Source: the human T2T-CHM13v2.0 reference genome, Homo sapiens. Taken from it: a stretch of DNA of 64,000 nt. The stretch is from positions 36,608,001 to 36,672,000 of the forward strand of contig CP068257.2 in the NCBI GenBank assembly GCA_009914755.4, in the 5' to 3' direction. A program made the translations under genes and the position numbers. Shown one piece after another: positions 11,048 through 30,119 of this stretch (the first letter of the stretch is position 1; every line of letters begins with the position of its first letter). The notes under the pieces were generated by a model. That model was not told the DNA's origin, searched no databases, and saw only the letters and a list, made by a program, of their open reading frames with translations.

Positions 11048-13490
11048 AAAGTTGAGCTGGAATTTGAGCTTATTTATTATTCCTTGAAAATCAAGTGTAG
11101 ATACCCTCGATTGCTACCATAGGGAGTGCCACAGCAAGAGCTCAGTGAGTATAATTTGTCCTCCTGTTTTTTTCTTTGTTTTGATTGCACATTTACTCTA
11201 TCAATAATATGAATGTTTCAAATTTTGTCTTTGAAATGTGGACTAGCAAAATTACTAAGATACTGAGTACTTAAAGTTACTTATAAAATACCGCTTAAAG
11301 ATATCAACATCTGTTCATCTGTAAAGCACTCTAGAAGTTGTTTGCAATTTTTACTGACAACTAAGTGAAATATAAAGATAAAACATTTGGATCTTTGATG
11401 AGCTTCAATTAGAAATGTTTTTTTCCAGAATATATCATTTTTCTAATGATAAATGGTTTAGATTGAGTTAATATTTCTGTTCCACAATTGTATTATTTCC
11501 TTTTGCCCATAGACTTTTTATTCATGCATTTCTTCAAAAAATAAATATTATATTGTTTCATCCCAATGCTTATATGGAGGCCCAGGAGGCTCTGCATCCC
11601 AACCCCTCTGTTTTCTGTCTTACCTGCCAGGTCAGGATGAGAAATGCCATTGGGCTTATTGAGGCAGGGATGGTGAGTCTAGCTTTCAGTTTCCTGTACC
11701 TGGCTGACATGATTTTCTTCACCGTCACTTGCTCTGGCTGGTATTTGTATCCATATAGAAAAATATAAACATAACAAAAGCTTTGGACAAATGAAATCAA
11801 ATTCTAATTCTATTAGAAGGCACCTGATGTCATTCTCTTAATGACTTTTTAGAGTATTACTGCACAAATACCCTCCACCAGGGGGTAGGGGAGGAAGCCT
11901 GTATTCTCCTCTGTCTGCATATCTAGTACTTTGCTAGTGGCTGACTTGGTGCTCCATAAACATGCCGTTTCTTCCTGACACTTTCATTTTCTTAAGCCCA
12001 TTAACAGCATGAGATAGACACATATGGGTGGATTCCCAAGTCAGATGCTTTGTTCTGAAACTATCTTTAAAATCTACTGTAGACTGATTTTCAGACCATT
12101 TTCCAGTGATGGAAACAGGCTCTCCCTGTGAATTTATGCAGCCTTGTTTCCCCTAACGTTTCACCCAAAATGAGGTTAGCCCTGGAAATTCCAGTGTCCC
12201 TTAGCTACAGGGGCCCTCCACTGAGAATGGCTTACTCCTATGTGTGGTACAAGTATTATGTTTGTTGCCTGTTCACATCCCAGGAAAAATACTGATTTCT
12301 GCTCCTGAAGTCATAAAAGATTATTCAATCATAAGCCTTATGTTTGGGATTATCTTCAACTATAAGCGGCTGCACACATTCAGCTTGTTCTTCCTGACTG
12401 AAGGGTCCAGAAGCAGACAGTCTATGGGTGGGAGGGTAACTCACAATGTCACCAGGGACCCAGTTCCTTTTCATTTCTACTCAGTCATCCTTGGCACAGG
12501 CGTGGTACTCTGTGTTACAAGAGGGCTGTTTGGTCCACCAGCAGCAAGAGGAAGGGAAAGGGGCAATGGGCAAAGATGACATGTCTATTGGCAAACTCTT
12601 CTAAAGAGATTTCCCAGAGGCAGGACGAACTTCTCACCCAAAATTTGGTTCAGATGTTGAGACTGATGATACCATATATGAATCCACTAAGAAAGTATGG
12701 AAAGGTTTATTGCTTACATAATGATCCAAAAATAGCTTTAGAATCCAGAGAAGAGAGACTGGCTTGGCGTTTATTGTGGGTAGAGATGAGGCTGGGGTGA
12801 AGGCTTTTGCACAGGGGTAGAGGCTTGTGGGGTTTAAATTTCCCACCAATTCCAAAGGAGGGAGCACCTGGGCCTTCTTTTCAGCTTCCTGGATATGGAA
12901 CAAAAGGAGAAGAGGGAGTAATGAGATTTGAATGCAGCCAGACATCAGAAATGTAGTCAGACTCTTTATTGCACTGTCTCAATACCCTTCTCCTGGCATC
13001 TTACAGCAGGCTGAGAAATGTGGTGTTTTAGTGGCCACAATGGAGGGCTGTTAGCACAGGAGTGCAGGATGGAGGTGAGCGGGGGGGCAGGCAGCAGACT
13101 CTGCCAGCCCAGCCATCTCGTCTTTCCTGCTGACCTCCATTCAAAGATGAAAAGTGACCTTGGCTGTCCACAAGGATCAATGGTGTTGAGGTACCTGGCT
13201 CACTTTTGTTACATAACCAAGTCCAGTGAACTACAGTAATGTAGCCTTTTCCAAAGCTTGAAGGAGCAAGAGGAAAACCATGAGAAGGAAGAAGAGAGCT
13301 ACCCTTTGGGACACAGCAGGGCCCAGTGAGTGTGTTCAGCTATAAATATGGGCATCCTAAAGATCCATCGCAATGGTATGTCCTTCTGTTAATTGCAAAG
13401 ACAAAGGGAACACACAAGTTAAAAACAACAACAACAACAAGAACAACAGTAACAATAACGATAGAAAGCAAAACAGCCTAATTCTGTCCT

Positions 13491-13516
13491 CTAGGCTGGA
13501 GACTGTAATTTTTTCC
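13491..13516. repeat. Target-site duplication (3' side) of the SPATA20 retrocopy
   Basis: 'ctaggctggagactgtaatttttt' at 13491-13516 is a direct repeat of 'ctgggctctggagactgtaatgtttt' at 14138-14162. On the insert's sense strand the TSD begins with an A-run, as expected for an L1 endonuclease site. Confidence 0.8.
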
Positions 13517-14137
13517 CCACCGTAGGATACTGTTAAGTTTATTCTAGGGTGAGTGGGTGCCCAAGGGAGGCAGTGAGTATGGCTGAAGTCACCTGGTGGC
13601 AGGGTGCTCAGGGATGGCCACAAGTTCTACACGGCCCTGCAGGACCTGAGTCTTTAGTCAGTTGGGAAGCTCTACCTTCTGCCCCAGCCCAAGAGGGTTG
13701 GGGCAGTCACGGATGTAGCAGTTTTCGTAATTCACAGGGATCCATGATGAGCATTGAGCAGGCTTGATTCTCACACACATACGCAGTGGCCTGGTCTTCC
13801 TGCCTTCGGAGGGTACTCAGGAAAGGCAGCCAGTGGGACAGGAAACTCGAGGGGTCCCCATCAGCCAGAATCAGCACCATGTTAGGAATGTAGACAGGGT
13901 GGACGCACTGCACCAGAACTTTGGTGTCCTTGGCCTGGCGGTCTCCACAGATGGTGATCTGCCTGAGGGTCTGCTGCTGGGCTGAGAGGGCACGGACCAT
14001 CTCCGGCAATGCCACCGGGACATGGTGCATGTGCTGGGAGAAGGCAGTCACTAGGCACACACACTTGTCCATCCAGTCCTTGTGACTCGTGAAGCTGTGC
14101 AACCAGAGCGGGTTGTGGGCTGACACGGAATTGGCGC
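13517..14137 (-). pseudogene. SPATA20: 5'-truncated processed pseudogene (retrocopy) of the SPATA20 (DUF255 thioredoxin-like / six-hairpin) mRNA 3' end: C-terminal ~143 codons, stop, ~170-nt 3'UTR and AATAAA
   Basis: The uninterrupted minus-strand frame reads '…SAHNPLWLHSFTSHKDWMDKCVCLVTAFSQ…VLILADGDPSSFLSHWLPFLSTLRRQEDQATAYVCENQACSMLIMDPCELRKLLHP*'. This matches the conserved C-terminus of DUF255 proteins ('…TAYVCENFACQ-PVTDP-EL--LL'); SPATA20 is the only human member. The stop is at 13707-13709. A minus-strand AATAAA lies at 13538-13543. There are no introns, and TSDs flank the insert. Confidence 0.75.
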
Positions 14138-14162
14138 TGGGCTCTGGAGACTGTAATGTTTT
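14138..14162. repeat. Target-site duplication (5' side) of the SPATA20 retrocopy
   Basis: See the 3' copy at 13491-13516. About 22 of 25 positions are identical. Confidence 0.8.
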
Positions 14163-17100
14163 AAACTCTAGGAGGAATGTCCTCTGAAAGATTGTTCAGA
14201 AGAGGAAGTTGTTTTCCCCACTGGAAGGAAAAGAGGGGAGAAGAGTCAGAATGATTAGATAAAAGTGCTTTCCAATATGTTATTGTCCAGAGCGTGGTGT
14301 AGAAAAACAAAAGTATAGTAAAAAATGATTCTCCCTTTCAGTTCTCTCTTTAACCTTTCTCTCTCTCTCACATTTTTGTACTCAGATGTTGCTCCCTGGT
14401 TAAAAATAATTCTGCAGTTGAAAAGCAAGTCACTTGGGAAGATCTGCAAGTTAAAGCCCTACCAATAGTTTTCAAATATGACAATAAATGTCTGGGTGGT
14501 GATGAAGGGTGACTTGCAGAAGCACCATTTTCCATTGAGAAGGTGGTTATTGGCTTGCTATTAGAGGAGGAAGAAAAGATCTATGTTTATGGTGCTGATG
14601 GAGAAGCGTTCAGAACTAGCTGCTTTTGTGTTTAATATTTCAGTGAGGCAGGTGTCCCTAAAGGCATGTTGACACTTACCTCTAAGGATTCAACCAGAAA
14701 TCTCTTTGATTTGACATTTATTTTACAACTTTGATGTTTGTGACCACTGCTCAGTTCCCACAGGTTGCTGTTTGACCACAACAAGGTCACAAAGCCACGA
14801 AGCCATAAAATATGTTCAATTCAATAGCTAGTTATGGCTCTCGGCTCAGGGACCCCACCTCCCCAAAAACTAGCAGTCTAGAGGACTCCCTTGGCAGAGA
14901 ATCTGAGCACATGCGTTCTGCAAAGCCTCTTCTGGGGTCCTGATTTATTTTTATTTTTTCACTTTCTCCCCTTTATTCTCTTGATGAGCTTCAAAAAAAA
15001 ATTCCATTGCAGCTGGCAAGGCCGAAAAGGTACTTAATTTCAACCACATTTTTGGTACCCTAGGAAAACTAATTAGAAATAATATACAGAGAACAAGGTA
15101 TGGCATAGATGCACAAGATCTTTGCAGGCCAGTGAGCAAACCAAAGATACGAGAAATCGTAGGTCTGCCAACCTTATCTTAAAGTAAAAAATTGAGTTAC
15201 AAACAAAATACAAGTGCCACCACTCCTAGTGTGGAGAAGTCAGCTTGGGCCCATATCCCAACTTTAAGTAAAGTAGAAAACATTTATTTTATGTCTGCTT
15301 TGCCGTGACTGCCCTACAGTGGAAACAGGACATTTTTGCCATGAATTTATCATTTGATGCAGATGTTTGGCTCAAGTTTCCTGATCTTGTCAGCAAAGTT
15401 GACGTTAAAACATTAGAACAAGAATTGTGGTTTATTTACGTTTTCTTACAAGGTGTAAATTTGCATATATGAGCTTTGTTTTTATTGCAGCCTCTTAGAG
15501 AGCCTCTAGTTTTGGAGTGTATGCCCTATTTTTTCTCCATGAATAGTTTGATAGTTGTACTTAAATTTATGGGTTCTTTCTACCTCTTTCTACCTTTATT
15601 TCTCCAAGTACCAGCACATTTTATTACAGTGATTGCTGCTTTCCTGTTATTTTTTTAATGGCCATCAAGAAATATAGACTCCCATCGTAGCATTGCAGGT
15701 GGCTAACCCCATCTTGACCTCTAGACTTTTCTAAGTCTGCAAAGAATAAAAACAAGGAGGAATTTGCAAAGTTCATCAAGTCTAGACCTTCCTTAGAGGC
15801 CTAATGATTATATTTGAAGCCACTCTGGCCAGTTTTCCTGATTGGAAATGGTTAAAAAGTAGCTAGGAAGTTCTGAAAAAGCAAAAGTGGTTAAGATAAC
15901 AAGTTAAGCATTAGCAAGGAAGTTTTTCTTGAGTTCAAGTATTAATACATGGTCTGGGCTTTAGGAGTAATTTTACACCAGTTGTCTGTTTTCCTTTCAG
16001 AGGTGGATGGAAAGTTGTTCTCAAAATGCATCTGAGTTGTTGAATATCCATTATGTTACAGGGAAGCCATTCCTTCTTCCAAAACAGTTTTAATTTTTAT
16101 GGAGTCTAAGTTAAAACAGGAACATTTATTTTCTTATGGGTAAAGTTCCTGGAATGCTCTATTACATGGATTTAGTACATTTTTTGACCAAATAACACTT
16201 GACCAAACATTATTTTCAAAATTGATCTCTCTTTAAAAAACAAAAAGATTTAAAAATATGGTTCCTTTTGCTGATGAGCATCATACTTTGGCATTTAGTC
16301 TGTAAAACCTTGGCATTTAGTCTGTCTTCCTGGAGCTCAGTTTCTTGAAATGCACATCTCGCATTCAGGGCTTTCATACTCAACAGGTGGTACCAGCCAC
16401 TGGTGTTCTGCTTATAATAAAAATGATACATGTGTATTAATATTGCTCTTGTAGTTAATAAACACACCCAAATCTGGTTAATTTGTTCAAATTATTGACA
16501 GATTCTCTGTGATTTACCAGGATTAATGAGTATGCAAATACAAGGAAGAATGCCCAGGATAGAGAACATCATGGAACATATTGTACTTTATTGTAAAATA
16601 AAAATAGCCCTGGACAGCCCATGGAATGCGTTCTAACAGCATAATCAGTTCTTTACTGTGGTTTTCCTGCCAGGCGGGGAGCCCTGTGTCACACAGGGTG
16701 GGTGCCAAGTGTCTGGTTTGCGCTTTGGTAAGATTTTTCTTTTTCTTCCTGATAATTTTCAGGTTTGCAGTTTCTCCAAGTGCAAAACATCCAAGCCACC
16801 TCCCTCTGCAGTGGAGTATTGATTTTGTTCTAGATTTCTCAGCAAAGGTTGGGATATTAGAGTTCAAAACACAAGTGGGCAGGGTGAGCCCACAGTCTCT
16901 GTGACGGGGCCTGCTGGACACTCCCAGTCTGCCGGCGAATGGCAGAGGCCTGGGACAGCACGGTGGAATTTTCATCTCGTGCAAATGAACTTGGCCTCTT
17001 AGATCCAGGTCCTCTGCTACCAACAGTGAATTTGTTACAGTGTGAAATGCTGAGGCAACTACCTAAATAAATCTGGGCAAAATATACTATCGAAGCAATC

Positions 17101-17167: not shown

Positions 17168-17561
<394 letters not shown>

Positions 17562-21051: not shown

Positions 21052-21250
21052 AAAGAAAGAAAAGAAAGAAAGAAAGAGAGAGAGAGAAAGAAAGAAAGGA
21101 GGGAAGGAAGGAGAGAGGAAGGAAGGGAAGGGAAAGAGAGACAGAGAAAGGAAAGAAGAAAGAAAGAAGGAAAGGGAAGAAAGAAAGAAGGAAAGGAAAG
21201 AAAGAAAGAGAGAGAAAGAGAAAGGAAGGAAGGAGAAAGAGAATGAAAGG
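21052..21250. repeat. (GAAA)n/(GGAA)n polypurine microsatellite (~200 bp)
   Basis: Uninterrupted purine strand: 'aaagaaagaaaagaaagaaagaaagagagagagagaaag…ggaaggaaggagag…'. Confidence 0.95.
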
Positions 21251-22477: not shown

Positions 22478-23092
22478 AGGATGGATGGATGGATGGATGC
22501 ATAGGTAGATGGATGGATGCATAAGTGGATGGATGGATGGATGGGTGAATGGATGGATGGATGGATGGATGGATGGATGGATGGATGGATGGATGCATGG
22601 ATGGATGGATGGATGGATGCATGGATGTATAGGTATATGGATGGATGGACAGATGGATGGATGGATGCATAGGTAGATGGATGGATGGATAAATGGATTG
22701 ATGGATGGATGGATGGATGGATGGATAAATGGATGTATGGCTAAATGGATAGATGGATAGATGCATAGGTGGATGGATGGATCGATGGGTAAATGGATGG
22801 ATGGATAGATACATAGGTGGATGGATGGATGGATGGATGGATGAATGGATGTATGGATAAACGGATGGATAGATGGATAAATGGATGGTTGGATAGATGC
22901 ATAGGTGGATGGATGTATGGATGAATGGATGTATGGATAAACGGATGGATAGATGGATAAATGGATGGTTGGATAGATGCATAGGTGGATGGATGGATGG
23001 ATGGATGGATGGATGGATGGATGGAAAGATGCATGCATGCATAGGTAGATAAATGGATGAATGGATATGTAGGTAGATGGATGGATTGATTG
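22478..23092. repeat. (GGAT)n tetranucleotide array with GCAT/GTAT/AGGT variant units (~615 bp)
   Basis: 'ggatggatggatggatgcataggtagatggatgg…'. It generates three overlapping artefactual minus-strand ORFs (SIHPSIHP…). Confidence 0.97.
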
Positions 23093-29000: not shown

Positions 29001-30119
29001 GTTGTAAGCTTCCATAAATAGCTCCATATCTAACCCAACTTAAATAGAATTTATTCCAAGGTAAAAATATTTTTTCCCTCTCATCACACTTTAAGGTTTT
29101 TTATGTCTTGATTCAAGCCAAGATGAGGATTGGAAACATTATAGCATTTTTTTTTCTTTTTTGGAAATTATTCTTGGGAAACAGTTCTCTTGAAAAATTT
29201 GGTTCTTGTGAACTCTTCTGCCCAGTATTCAGATGTCATTTCAGATCTTCATAGAAAAATCCAGACTTCTATGTATTTTCTATGCAAATTTGACACAACT
29301 AAGAGTCTTTCCGTTAACTGTGGAGGTGGGGGTTGGGGAGCAGAAAGAAGTAAACACAACTTACTGAATAGTCATTTATATTTGTTTTTATCTTCGGCTA
29401 AAAGGTCAGTAAAATTAACCATGTTCAATTATGAAATGATTAGCTATGTTATTTCATGTAATCTTATACACTAGATTTCCCACTTTACTCCTTAGAACCA
29501 GAATTGTGAAACAAATTTTACTCATTGGATGAGAGAGAGATTGCATGGCAGAAAATATTATTTTGTCAGGATTAACAGTTTGTCCTATTTCCCTTAGTTA
29601 GTTTCAGAAATTTCCAGAAATACTTAGATCATTCAGTTGTTAAAGCATGCTTAACAAAGCCTGGCCTCTATGACAGAAGTCACATAGACGCGCATTTTAG
29701 AATTTCCCCACTCACCTCTCAACCCTGCAGTCATACATTTATAATGTCTCATCTCCTTTGGTAAACTGTCAGATCTGCAGCCTCAAAATCTAATTGTTGA
29801 CATATCACCAAATGAAAAGTAACAAAAACAGGTAAACATCACCAAAATGAAGAACATTGTCTTAGCATTTAAACTTTAAAATGTATTTCTACTACTCTGG
29901 ACTCATTTTTTCCTTCCATCATCTTTAAAATTGTTATAAATGAGTATCTGCTCCACTGTGTATGGTCCTGCAAGAACTAAAACTTCCCAGAGTATTAAAC
30001 TGTGGTTAAAATTCATGCAGTATGTAACTCGATGCTGAGAAGAAGCTACATATGCATATGTATGCTCAAAATATAAGAATTTAAGAAAAATGTACGATAA
30101 TGAAAAATGCATGGATTGA

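What the first reader, a model, noticed from the sequence alone, without database searches (positions are those of the whole stretch)
13491..14162. 5'-truncated SPATA20 retrocopy with ~25-bp target-site duplications
An intronless minus-strand frame of ~143 codons ends '…TAYVCENQACSMLIMDPCELRKLLHP*'. It is followed by a ~170-nt UTR and an AATAAA ~20 nt before the insert end. The whole unit is bracketed by direct repeats 'ct(a/g)gg(ct)ctggagactgtaat(t/g)tttt' at 13491-13516 and 14138-14162. The A-run of the TSD abuts the cleavage site, with essentially no poly-A tail left.
The protein matches the conserved C-terminal six-hairpin tail of DUF255 / thioredoxin-domain proteins. SPATA20 is the only human member of that family. 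This is a clean, fully delimited L1-mediated retroposition of an mRNA 3' end.
It could be mis-scored as an exon by gene predictors, as the supplied ORF 13707-14126 shows.
Basis: partly seen in the sequence, partly recalled or inferred. Interest (0 to 1): 0.55.

Follow-up and report, generated by a model that had tools for sequence, protein, structure and literature searches.

The report
Old SPATA20 processed pseudogene (SPATA20P1)
This is an ordinary dead copy of the tail end of the SPATA20 messenger RNA, pasted into the genome by the LINE-1 machinery before apes and Old World monkeys split; it is almost certainly the already catalogued pseudogene SPATA20P1.

Summary
Window 13519-14146 (minus strand) is an intronless copy of the last 145 codons plus the 188-nt 3'UTR of SPATA20. 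It is 90.3-90.7% identical to a spliced SPATA20 transcript contig. It crosses two exon junctions that carry introns of 777 and 179 nt in gibbon genomic DNA. Homology starts inside an exon and stops about 19 nt after AATAAA.

The copy is bracketed by a 19-nt target-site duplication (18/19 identical), not about 25 nt. The target reads TTTT/AA, the LINE-1 endonuclease consensus, and the 5' junction has 3 nt of microhomology.

The same filled site, with the same junction, is present in orangutan and in an Old-World-monkey-like contig. The insertion is therefore at least about 25-30 Myr old, with a rough estimate of 40 Myr.

Orangutan carries a frameshift and the monkey copy two stop codons. Changes on the retrocopy branches fall 11/21/14 on codon positions 1/2/3, so evolution has been neutral. 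The open frame in the window is expected by chance (26-52% in simulation).

SPATA20P1 (ENSG00000231123, 21q22.13) is already annotated, so this is known and ordinary. One minor point: an orangutan gene model splices an upstream exon onto the retrocopy, and both splice signals are conserved in the window.

The parts
13496..13514 (.). Target-site duplication, copy next to the 3' (poly-A) end of the retrocopy: ctggagactgtaatttttt
   Evidence: 19 nt, 18/19 identical to 14144-14162; core occurs only twice in the window, 0 expected; conserved in Pongo
13515..13518 (-). GGGG spacer (cccc on the + strand) between the last SPATA20-homologous base and the TSD; this is where a poly(A) tail should be
   Evidence: shared with Pongo; matches neither parental genomic read-through (AACCTGAGGG) nor a plain A tail. 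Unexplained.
13519..13706 (-). SPATA20 3'UTR-derived segment (188 nt, 18 mismatches to the parental transcript)
13538..13543 (-). AATAAA polyadenylation signal inherited from the SPATA20 mRNA; 18 nt separate it from the last homologous base
   Evidence: identical in window, Pongo and both parental sequences
13707..13709 (-). Native SPATA20 stop codon (TGA)
13710..14144 (-). 145 codons copied from the C-terminus of SPATA20 (EPSANSV...KLLHP). Covers part of one exon plus the two last coding exons, with no introns. Exon junctions lie at 13959|13958 and 13878|13877.
   Evidence: 43 mismatches in 435 nt to the parental transcript; 86% amino-acid identity to P0002
14144..14146 (-). CAG microhomology shared by the end of the TSD and the SPATA20 mRNA at the 5'-truncation point
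   Evidence: SPATA20 homology runs to 14146; the TSD starts at 14144
14144..14162 (.). Target-site duplication, copy next to the truncated 5' end of the retrocopy: ctggagactgtaatgtttt
   Evidence: the same junction is present in Pongo and in the monkey-like contig L005
14159..14164 (+). tttt/aa: LINE-1 endonuclease nick-site consensus on the priming (+) strand, nick between 14162 and 14163
   Evidence: read directly; the consensus itself is established knowledge of L1 target-primed reverse transcription
14221..14222 (-). Splice acceptor AG after a pyrimidine tract. The orangutan gene model uses it to join an upstream exon to a terminal exon that contains the retrocopy.
   Evidence: acceptor context identical in window, Pongo and monkey; use in the window's species is not shown
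29714..29738 (-). Counterpart of the first coding exon of the orangutan model (ATGTATGACTGCAGGGTTGAGAG) plus its GT donor
   Evidence: 29/29 identical to Pongo, 0 matches expected by chance

Best explanation
A mature, spliced and polyadenylated SPATA20 mRNA was reverse-transcribed into this site by the LINE-1 machinery (target-primed reverse transcription).

How the insertion happened (mechanism inferred from the sequence anatomy):
- L1 endonuclease nicked the + strand at ...gtaatgTTTT/AAactc.
- The freed T-run primed cDNA synthesis on the poly(A) tail.
- Synthesis or integration stopped about 630 nt in, so only the last 145 codons and the 188-nt 3'UTR were copied (5' truncation).
- The cDNA end was joined to the target through a 3-nt CAG microhomology.
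- A second nick 19 nt away produced the 19-nt target-site duplication.

Timing: the event predates the ape / Old World monkey split.

Fate: the copy has no start codon and no promoter of its own. It has since drifted neutrally to about 9.5% divergence from the parent, with CpG decay. It is a non-coding processed pseudogene, very probably the one catalogued as SPATA20P1 at human 21q22.13.
For: Shown by tool results:
- Identity. 90.7% nucleotide identity over 622 nt to a spliced SPATA20 transcript contig, or 61 mismatches in 628 nt with no gap. Relatives are named SPATA20 / SSP411 / YyaL.
- Intron loss. Gibbon genomic DNA matches in three pieces separated by 777 and 179 nt with AG/GT borders. 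The window is continuous across both junctions.
- Boundaries. Homology begins inside an exon at 14146 and ends at 13519, with 18 nt between AATAAA and that last base. There the parental genomic sequence goes on differently. No other SPATA20 homology exists in the 64 kb.
- TSD. 19 nt, 18/19 identical, exactly flanking the homology. TTTT/AA lies at the nick.
- Base composition. The insert is 56-59% GC against flanks of about 37-45%.
- Age. The orthologous filled site with the same 5' junction is present in Pongo pygmaeus, which is 96% identical over 28 kb. It is also present in a contig whose flank is 94.2% identical, i.e. Old-World-monkey-like.
- Neutral decay. Pongo has a 1-nt deletion and the monkey copy two in-frame stops. 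Changes on retrocopy-only branches fall 11/21/14 on codon positions 1/2/3. 13 of 62 differences are parental CpG to TpG/CpA, and CpG count falls from 25 to 16.
- The open frame is not informative. A 145-codon frame stays open in 26-52% of neutral simulations.
- Already catalogued. SPATA20P1 is listed as a pseudogene at 21q22.13 (GeneID 100874060, PMC12779367) and as ENSG00000231123 (PMC7248486). Every retrocopy-like protein hit in the database is orthologous or identical to this one locus.
Against: - There is no recognisable poly(A) tail. Four G's of unknown origin sit where it should be (13515-13518).
- No empty (pre-insertion) site was recovered from an outgroup, so the insertion is inferred from anatomy rather than seen as presence/absence.
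- That the window is human chromosome 21q22.13 was not tested directly, because no human reference was searchable. It rests on the single-locus argument and on the orangutan chromosome-scale contig.
- Nei-Gojobori dN/dS between retrocopy orthologues is 0.53-0.59, not 1. Counts are small, and CpG/transition bias inflates dS.
- There are no indels in 628 nt against the parent.
Confidence: 0.95

Rival explanations
1. The retrocopy is not inert. It has been taken over as the 3'-terminal exon and polyadenylation signal of a spliced primate transcript, either a long non-coding RNA or a short chimeric ORF. That would explain why SPATA20P1 RNA is reported in RNA-seq studies.
For: - NCBI's orangutan model 'SPATA20-like isoform X1' (P0004) joins an exon about 15.5 kb upstream (MYDCRVE-) to an acceptor 58 nt upstream of the 5' TSD copy (exon start 14220).
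- The upstream exon with its GT donor is 29/29 identical in the window. The acceptor context is identical in window, Pongo and monkey.
- AATAAA is intact.
- SPATA20P1 appears in differential-expression tables.
Against: - In the window and in the monkey contig an in-frame TGA (TTC TGA ACA) sits between the acceptor and the retrocopy. The orangutan reading frame therefore exists only through a lineage-specific T-to-C change.
- There is no coding constraint, and the orangutan frame ends in a frameshifted tail.
- Transcription in the window's species could not be tested here. The gene model may be ab initio.
- RNA-seq counts for a 90%-identical pseudogene can include mis-mapped parental reads.
Confidence: 0.3
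2. It is a protein-coding retrogene: the intact 139-145-codon frame is maintained by selection.
For: The frame is open up to the native stop in the window. There are no indels against the parent. dN/dS between orthologues is 0.53-0.59.
Against: - There is no start codon at the truncation point and no promoter of its own.
- Pongo has a frameshift and the monkey copy two premature stops.
- Substitutions are not enriched at third codon positions (11/21/14).
- A frame this long survives neutral decay in 26-52% of simulations.
- The fragment lacks the thioredoxin-like catalytic N-terminal part of the family, and Pfam finds no domain in it.
Confidence: 0.03
3. It is a DNA-level (segmental) duplicate of the 3' end of the SPATA20 gene, or a cDNA captured at a double-strand break without LINE-1.
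For: The missing poly(A) tail and the microhomology at the 5' junction are also seen in repair-mediated captures.
Against: - Both introns are precisely absent.
- No homology extends beyond the mRNA ends.
- A 19-nt TSD begins exactly at a TTTT/AA site. Endonuclease-independent or repair-mediated insertions typically lack these hallmarks (established knowledge).
Confidence: 0.02

Closest known systems
SPATA20P1 (spermatogenesis associated 20 pseudogene 1; NCBI GeneID 100874060, ENSG00000231123, human 21q22.13)
   Same: - It is a pseudogene of SPATA20.
- Only one SPATA20 retrocopy locus is visible among all database hits, and it is this one.
- The orangutan orthologue lies on a 59.7-Mb chromosome-scale contig and is annotated 'SPATA20-like'.
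- The pseudogene is listed in the literature at 21q22.13.
   Different: Nothing is known to differ. The identity of the window with that annotated locus is inferred rather than tested, because no human reference genome could be searched here.
Parental gene SPATA20 / SSP411 (Thioredox_DsbH, formerly DUF255, family; bacterial YyaL)
   Same: The last 145 codons and the whole 3'UTR are collinear. Identity is 90.3% at the nucleotide level and 86% at the amino-acid level. The stop codon and AATAAA are the same.
   Different: No introns. About four fifths of the coding sequence is missing, assuming the parent is about 786 aa (from memory). No promoter. Inserted in AT-richer, unrelated DNA. Decaying neutrally.
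Typical LINE-1-mediated processed pseudogenes (5'-truncated class)
   Same: Intron loss, a 3' end at the mRNA cleavage site, a 19-nt TSD, a TTTT/AA nick site, 5' truncation with junctional microhomology.
   Different: No poly(A) tail survives, and GGGG sits in its place. The loss is unusual but not rare for an insertion tens of millions of years old.

Membership tests
LINE-1-mediated processed pseudogene (retrocopy) | Parental introns are precisely absent | tested here: met
   Two exon junctions (13959|13958, 13878|13877) are continuous in the window. Gibbon genomic DNA has 777-nt and 179-nt introns there with AG/GT borders.
LINE-1-mediated processed pseudogene (retrocopy) | Homology is confined to the mature mRNA and ends at the polyadenylation cleavage site downstream of AATAAA | tested here: met
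   Homology ends at 13519, with 18 nt between AATAAA and that base. The parental genomic/read-through sequence diverges from that point. There is no further SPATA20 homology in the 64 kb.
LINE-1-mediated processed pseudogene (retrocopy) | Target-site duplication of about 7-20 bp flanking the insert | tested here: met
   19 nt, 18/19 identical, at 13496-13514 and 14144-14162. The core is unique to these two places, with 0 expected by chance.
LINE-1-mediated processed pseudogene (retrocopy) | L1 endonuclease nick-site consensus TTTT/AA at the priming end of the target | tested here: met
   The + strand reads gtaatgTTTT/AAactc at 14159-14164.
LINE-1-mediated processed pseudogene (retrocopy) | 3' poly(A) tail | tested here: not met
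   Only GGGG lies between the last homologous base and the A-run, and that A-run belongs to the TSD. Loss through age is plausible. This hallmark erodes with time, so its absence does not decide membership.
LINE-1-mediated processed pseudogene (retrocopy) | Empty (pre-insertion) site with one TSD copy in an outgroup | tested here: inconclusive
   A protein search with the flanking ORF found nothing. All three species recovered have the filled site.
SPATA20 / SSP411 / YyaL (Thioredox_DsbH) family, as source of the copied sequence | Significant sequence similarity to named family members over the copied region | tested here: met
   E = 4e-74 to 'SPATA20-like' of Pongo. The parental form hits SPATA20 of fish and insects and 'YyaL (SSP411 family)' proteins at 37-62% identity over about 97-100% of the query. 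The profile reaches PDB 7TKV 'Thioredox_DsbH domain-containing protein' at E = 7e-4.
SPATA20 / SSP411 / YyaL (Thioredox_DsbH) family, as source of the copied sequence | Pfam Thioredox_DsbH (PF03190) N-terminal domain present | tested here: not met
   No Pfam domain in the 143-aa fragment. This is expected, because only the C-terminal fifth was copied. The locus is a fragment of a family member, not a member.
Functional retrogene | Reading frame conserved among orthologues, with purifying selection | tested here: not met
   Frameshift in Pongo and two stops in the monkey copy. Codon-position counts are 11/21/14.
SPATA20P1 (annotated human locus) | Same genomic position, chr21q22.13, ENSG00000231123 | not testable with these tools
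   No human reference is searchable here. The identification is inferred from the single-locus argument and from the literature listing.

The most novel reading that the evidence does not exclude
The old SPATA20 retrocopy now serves as the terminal exon and poly(A) signal of a spliced, catarrhine-specific transcript. That transcript would start about 15.5 kb upstream (donor near 29715, acceptor at 14221-14222), as in the orangutan gene model. 'SPATA20P1' expression would then reflect a host non-coding RNA rather than an autonomous pseudogene transcript.
Probability: 0.3. Interest if true: 0.2.

Novelty: already known. Interest (0 to 1): 0.08.

Why it matters
It matters little biologically. Its practical value is for annotation:
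- The intact 139-145-codon frame can be mis-called as a gene or exon. That has already happened in the protein databases: P0001, P0003 and P0007 were called from human-like contamination in metagenome and run assemblies, and the orangutan locus carries a 'SPATA20-like' protein model.
- At 90% identity to SPATA20 it can attract mis-mapped reads.
- It is a clean worked example of a 5'-truncated L1-mediated retrocopy, with a TTTT/AA nick site, a 19-nt TSD and junctional microhomology.

Tried and rejected
- Pfam scan of the 143-aa frame: only a sub-threshold SapC match, which is meaningless.
- Single-sequence search of the PDB: only a chance hit at E about 1. A profile was needed to reach 7TKV.
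- Rfam scan of the whole window: nothing.
- Search for outgroup empty sites by protein search with the 49-aa ORF in the 5' flank: no candidates. A metagenome pattern scan for an empty site was considered but not run. An exact 25-nt or longer match in a platyrrhine or strepsirrhine contaminant is very unlikely.
- P0001 / L001 looked at first like a longer version of the retrocopy that extended into upstream SPATA20 sequence. It would then have argued against 5' truncation at 14146. Alignment shows a chimeric metagenome contig: its first about 330 nt are identical to the parental intron and exon start, and the rest is identical to the window, including the window's 3' flank. Rejected as evidence.
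- P0005 (gibbon 'SPATA20-like') was considered as an orthologous retrocopy. It has introns and unrelated flanks, so it is parental-type genomic DNA.
- Coding constraint was considered because of the open frame, the lack of indels and dN/dS of about 0.55. It was rejected on the codon-position counts, the disrupted orthologues and the simulation.

Full report
**What is in the sequence**

On the minus strand an open frame runs from the region of 14144 to a TGA at 13709-13707. It ends '...TAYVCENQACSMLIMDPCELRKLLHP*'. Downstream of the stop lie 188 nt, with AATAAA at 13543-13538.

The longest direct repeat in the surrounding 1.1 kb is a 19-nt pair, 13496-13514 and 14144-14162, identical at 18 of 19 positions. 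Its 14-nt core occurs only at these two places in the 64-kb window, against none in 100 shuffles. The insert is 56-59% GC in flanks of about 37-45%.

**What the frame is**

A search of the large protein collection with the 143-aa frame returned two kinds of hit:
- near-identical short proteins called from contaminating primate DNA in assemblies;
- two NCBI models named 'spermatogenesis-associated protein 20-like', from Pongo pygmaeus and Nomascus leucogenys.

One hit, P0002, comes from a transcript-like contig (L002). That contig is spliced across the last exons of the gene. Its protein ends '...ATAYVCENQACSVPITDPCELRKLLHP'.

Searching with that parental form gave SPATA20 of fish and insects and many bacterial 'YyaL (SSP411 family)' / thioredoxin-domain proteins. 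These aligned over nearly the whole 150 residues at 37-62% identity. A profile built from them weakly reaches the solved 'Thioredox_DsbH domain-containing protein' 7TKV, including its extreme C-terminus. Pfam itself finds no domain in the fragment. The source gene is therefore SPATA20, and the copied part is its conserved C-terminal end.

**Why it is a retrocopy and not a genomic duplicate**

- The window aligns to the spliced contig L002 in a single block, 13525-14146, at 90.7% identity. In a five-way alignment there are 61 mismatches in 628 nt and no gap.
- The gibbon locus (L004) is parental-type genomic DNA. It matches the window in three pieces, separated by 777 and 179 nt, with canonical AG and GT borders.
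- In the window the corresponding junctions, 13959|13958 and 13878|13877, are continuous.
- Homology starts inside an exon at 14146, about 14 nt after that exon's acceptor in the parent. It ends at 13519, where the parental genomic sequence continues AACCTGAGGG and the window does not.
- Nothing else in the 64 kb resembles SPATA20 genomic sequence apart from interspersed repeats.

**How it was inserted**

The retrocopy is on the minus strand, so the + strand carries the first-strand cDNA. On the + strand the undisturbed target reads ctggagactgtaatgTTTT/AAactc. This is the LINE-1 endonuclease consensus TTTT/AA, and the nick falls exactly at the end of the duplicated 19 nt (the consensus is established knowledge).

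The left TSD copy (13496-13514) is followed directly by the antisense 3'UTR, as target-primed reverse transcription predicts. At the other end, the last three bases of SPATA20 homology (CAG, 14146-14144) are also the first three bases of the TSD copy. This is a 3-nt microhomology of the kind commonly seen at the 5' junctions of truncated L1-mediated insertions (established knowledge).

The extra bases at 14138-14143 are SPATA20 sequence, and they resemble 13491-13495 only loosely and with an indel.

No poly(A) tail is left. Four G's (13518-13515) lie between the last homologous base and the TSD's A-run, in both the window and orangutan. I cannot explain them.

**Age and fate**

Two other species carry the filled site:
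- Orangutan. The locus (L003, a 59.7-Mb chromosome-scale contig) is collinear with the window over 28 kb at 96% identity. It carries the retrocopy with the same junctions.
- A monkey-like contig. L005, a Logan contig of unknown species, is collinear over 1.1 kb. Its flank is 94.2% identical to the window, against 96.9% for orangutan. That fits an Old World monkey. It has the same 5' junction.

The insertion therefore predates the ape / Old World monkey split. Site patterns in the 500 columns shared by all five sequences give these counts:
- about 15 changes on the window lineage since that split;
- about 21 changes on the monkey lineage;
- 19 changes shared by all retrocopies against both parental sequences.

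With roughly equal rates on the retrocopy and parental lineages, this puts the event near 40 Myr ago. This is my own rough estimate, with a range of perhaps 30-50 Myr.

The copy has decayed neutrally:
- Orangutan has a 1-nt deletion.
- The monkey copy has two in-frame stops.
- Changes on retrocopy-only branches fall 11, 21 and 14 on codon positions 1, 2 and 3.
- 13 of 62 differences from the parent are CpG decay, and CpG count falls from 25 to 16.

Nei-Gojobori dN/dS between orthologues is 0.53-0.59. Counts are small, and CpG and transition bias inflate dS, so I give it little weight. The intact frame in the window is unremarkable: 26-52% of simulated neutral histories with 20-43 substitutions keep it open.

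**Is it known?**

SPATA20P1 is a named human pseudogene, with NCBI GeneID 100874060 at 21q22.13 (PMC12779367) and Ensembl ID ENSG00000231123 (PMC7248486). It turns up in RNA-seq tables.

All retrocopy-type hits in a collection of 5.8 billion proteins belong to this one locus or its orthologues. A 6.2-kb contig from another sample is 99.95% identical to the window. I therefore take the window to be from a great ape, most likely human, and the element to be SPATA20P1. The chromosomal position itself could not be tested with these tools.

**One small extra**

The orangutan gene model (P0004) is a two-exon model. An upstream exon encoding MYDCRVE- is spliced to an acceptor 58 nt upstream of the 5' TSD copy (exon start 14220), which makes the retrocopy a terminal exon.

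The upstream exon and its GT donor are perfectly conserved in the window at 29738-29714. The acceptor context is identical in all three species, and AATAAA is intact.

In the window and in the monkey contig an in-frame TGA blocks that reading frame, so a protein is not credible. A spliced non-coding transcript ending at the SPATA20-derived poly(A) signal remains possible and untested.

**Verdict**

This is an ordinary, old, 5'-truncated processed pseudogene of low interest.

Noticed in passing
window 2123-3873 (minus strand): Decayed endogenous-retrovirus pol fragments. Overlapping ORFs hit the integrase zinc-binding domain (PF17921), RNase H (PF00075) and RT_RNaseH_2 (PF17919).
   Followed up: partly
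window 22479-23066: A 588-bp (GGAT)n tandem array of 147 copies. It produces spurious 138-194-aa ORFs rich in 'SIHP' on the minus strand.
   Followed up: partly
window 21052-21249: A purine-rich (AAAG)n-type degenerate microsatellite of about 200 bp.
   Followed up: no
window 13423-13470: An (AAC)n-like microsatellite about 25 nt outside the 3'-side TSD copy. It is 12 nt shorter in orangutan. It is not part of the retrocopy or its tail.
   Followed up: partly
window 13515-13518; L003 equivalent: Four G's (minus strand) sit where the poly(A) tail should be, and orangutan shares them. They are neither parental read-through nor a plain A tail. Possibly untemplated bases at integration or a decayed or mixed tail.
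   Followed up: partly
L001 (ENA ERZ926449, contig k127_127531), 1-940: A chimeric metagenome contig. About 330 nt of SPATA20 intron and exon start are fused to the chr21-type retrocopy and its flank. It has put a spurious 178-aa 'protein' (P0001, a cluster of 19 members) into the protein collection.
   Followed up: yes
L003 6001-22279 (Pongo pygmaeus CM054652.2); window 29714-29738 and 14220-14222: NCBI annotates a two-exon protein-coding 'SPATA20-like isoform X1' in orangutan, built on the pseudogene. Its frame depends on an orangutan-specific TGA-to-CGA change and ends in a frameshifted tail. It is probably a mis-annotated non-coding transcript.
   Followed up: partly
L004 7210-8807 (Nomascus leucogenys unplaced contig VIFL01001522.1): The gibbon 'SPATA20-like' locus has introns, so it is parental-type. 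However, it carries an 8-nt deletion in the third-from-last exon relative to L002 and sits on a 25-kb unplaced contig. It may be a degenerate partial duplicate or an assembly error.
   Followed up: no
window ~10750-11050 and ~17170-17470: Interspersed repeats of about 300 bp that match several places in the orangutan and gibbon loci at about 80-83% identity. They are Alu-like in size and copy number.
   Followed up: no
L002 1-530 and 1152-1352: The transcript-like SPATA20 contig is spliced across the last two introns. It nevertheless retains the intron upstream of the third-from-last exon and reads through the poly(A) site into downstream genomic sequence. It is probably assembled from incompletely processed or read-through RNA.
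   Followed up: no
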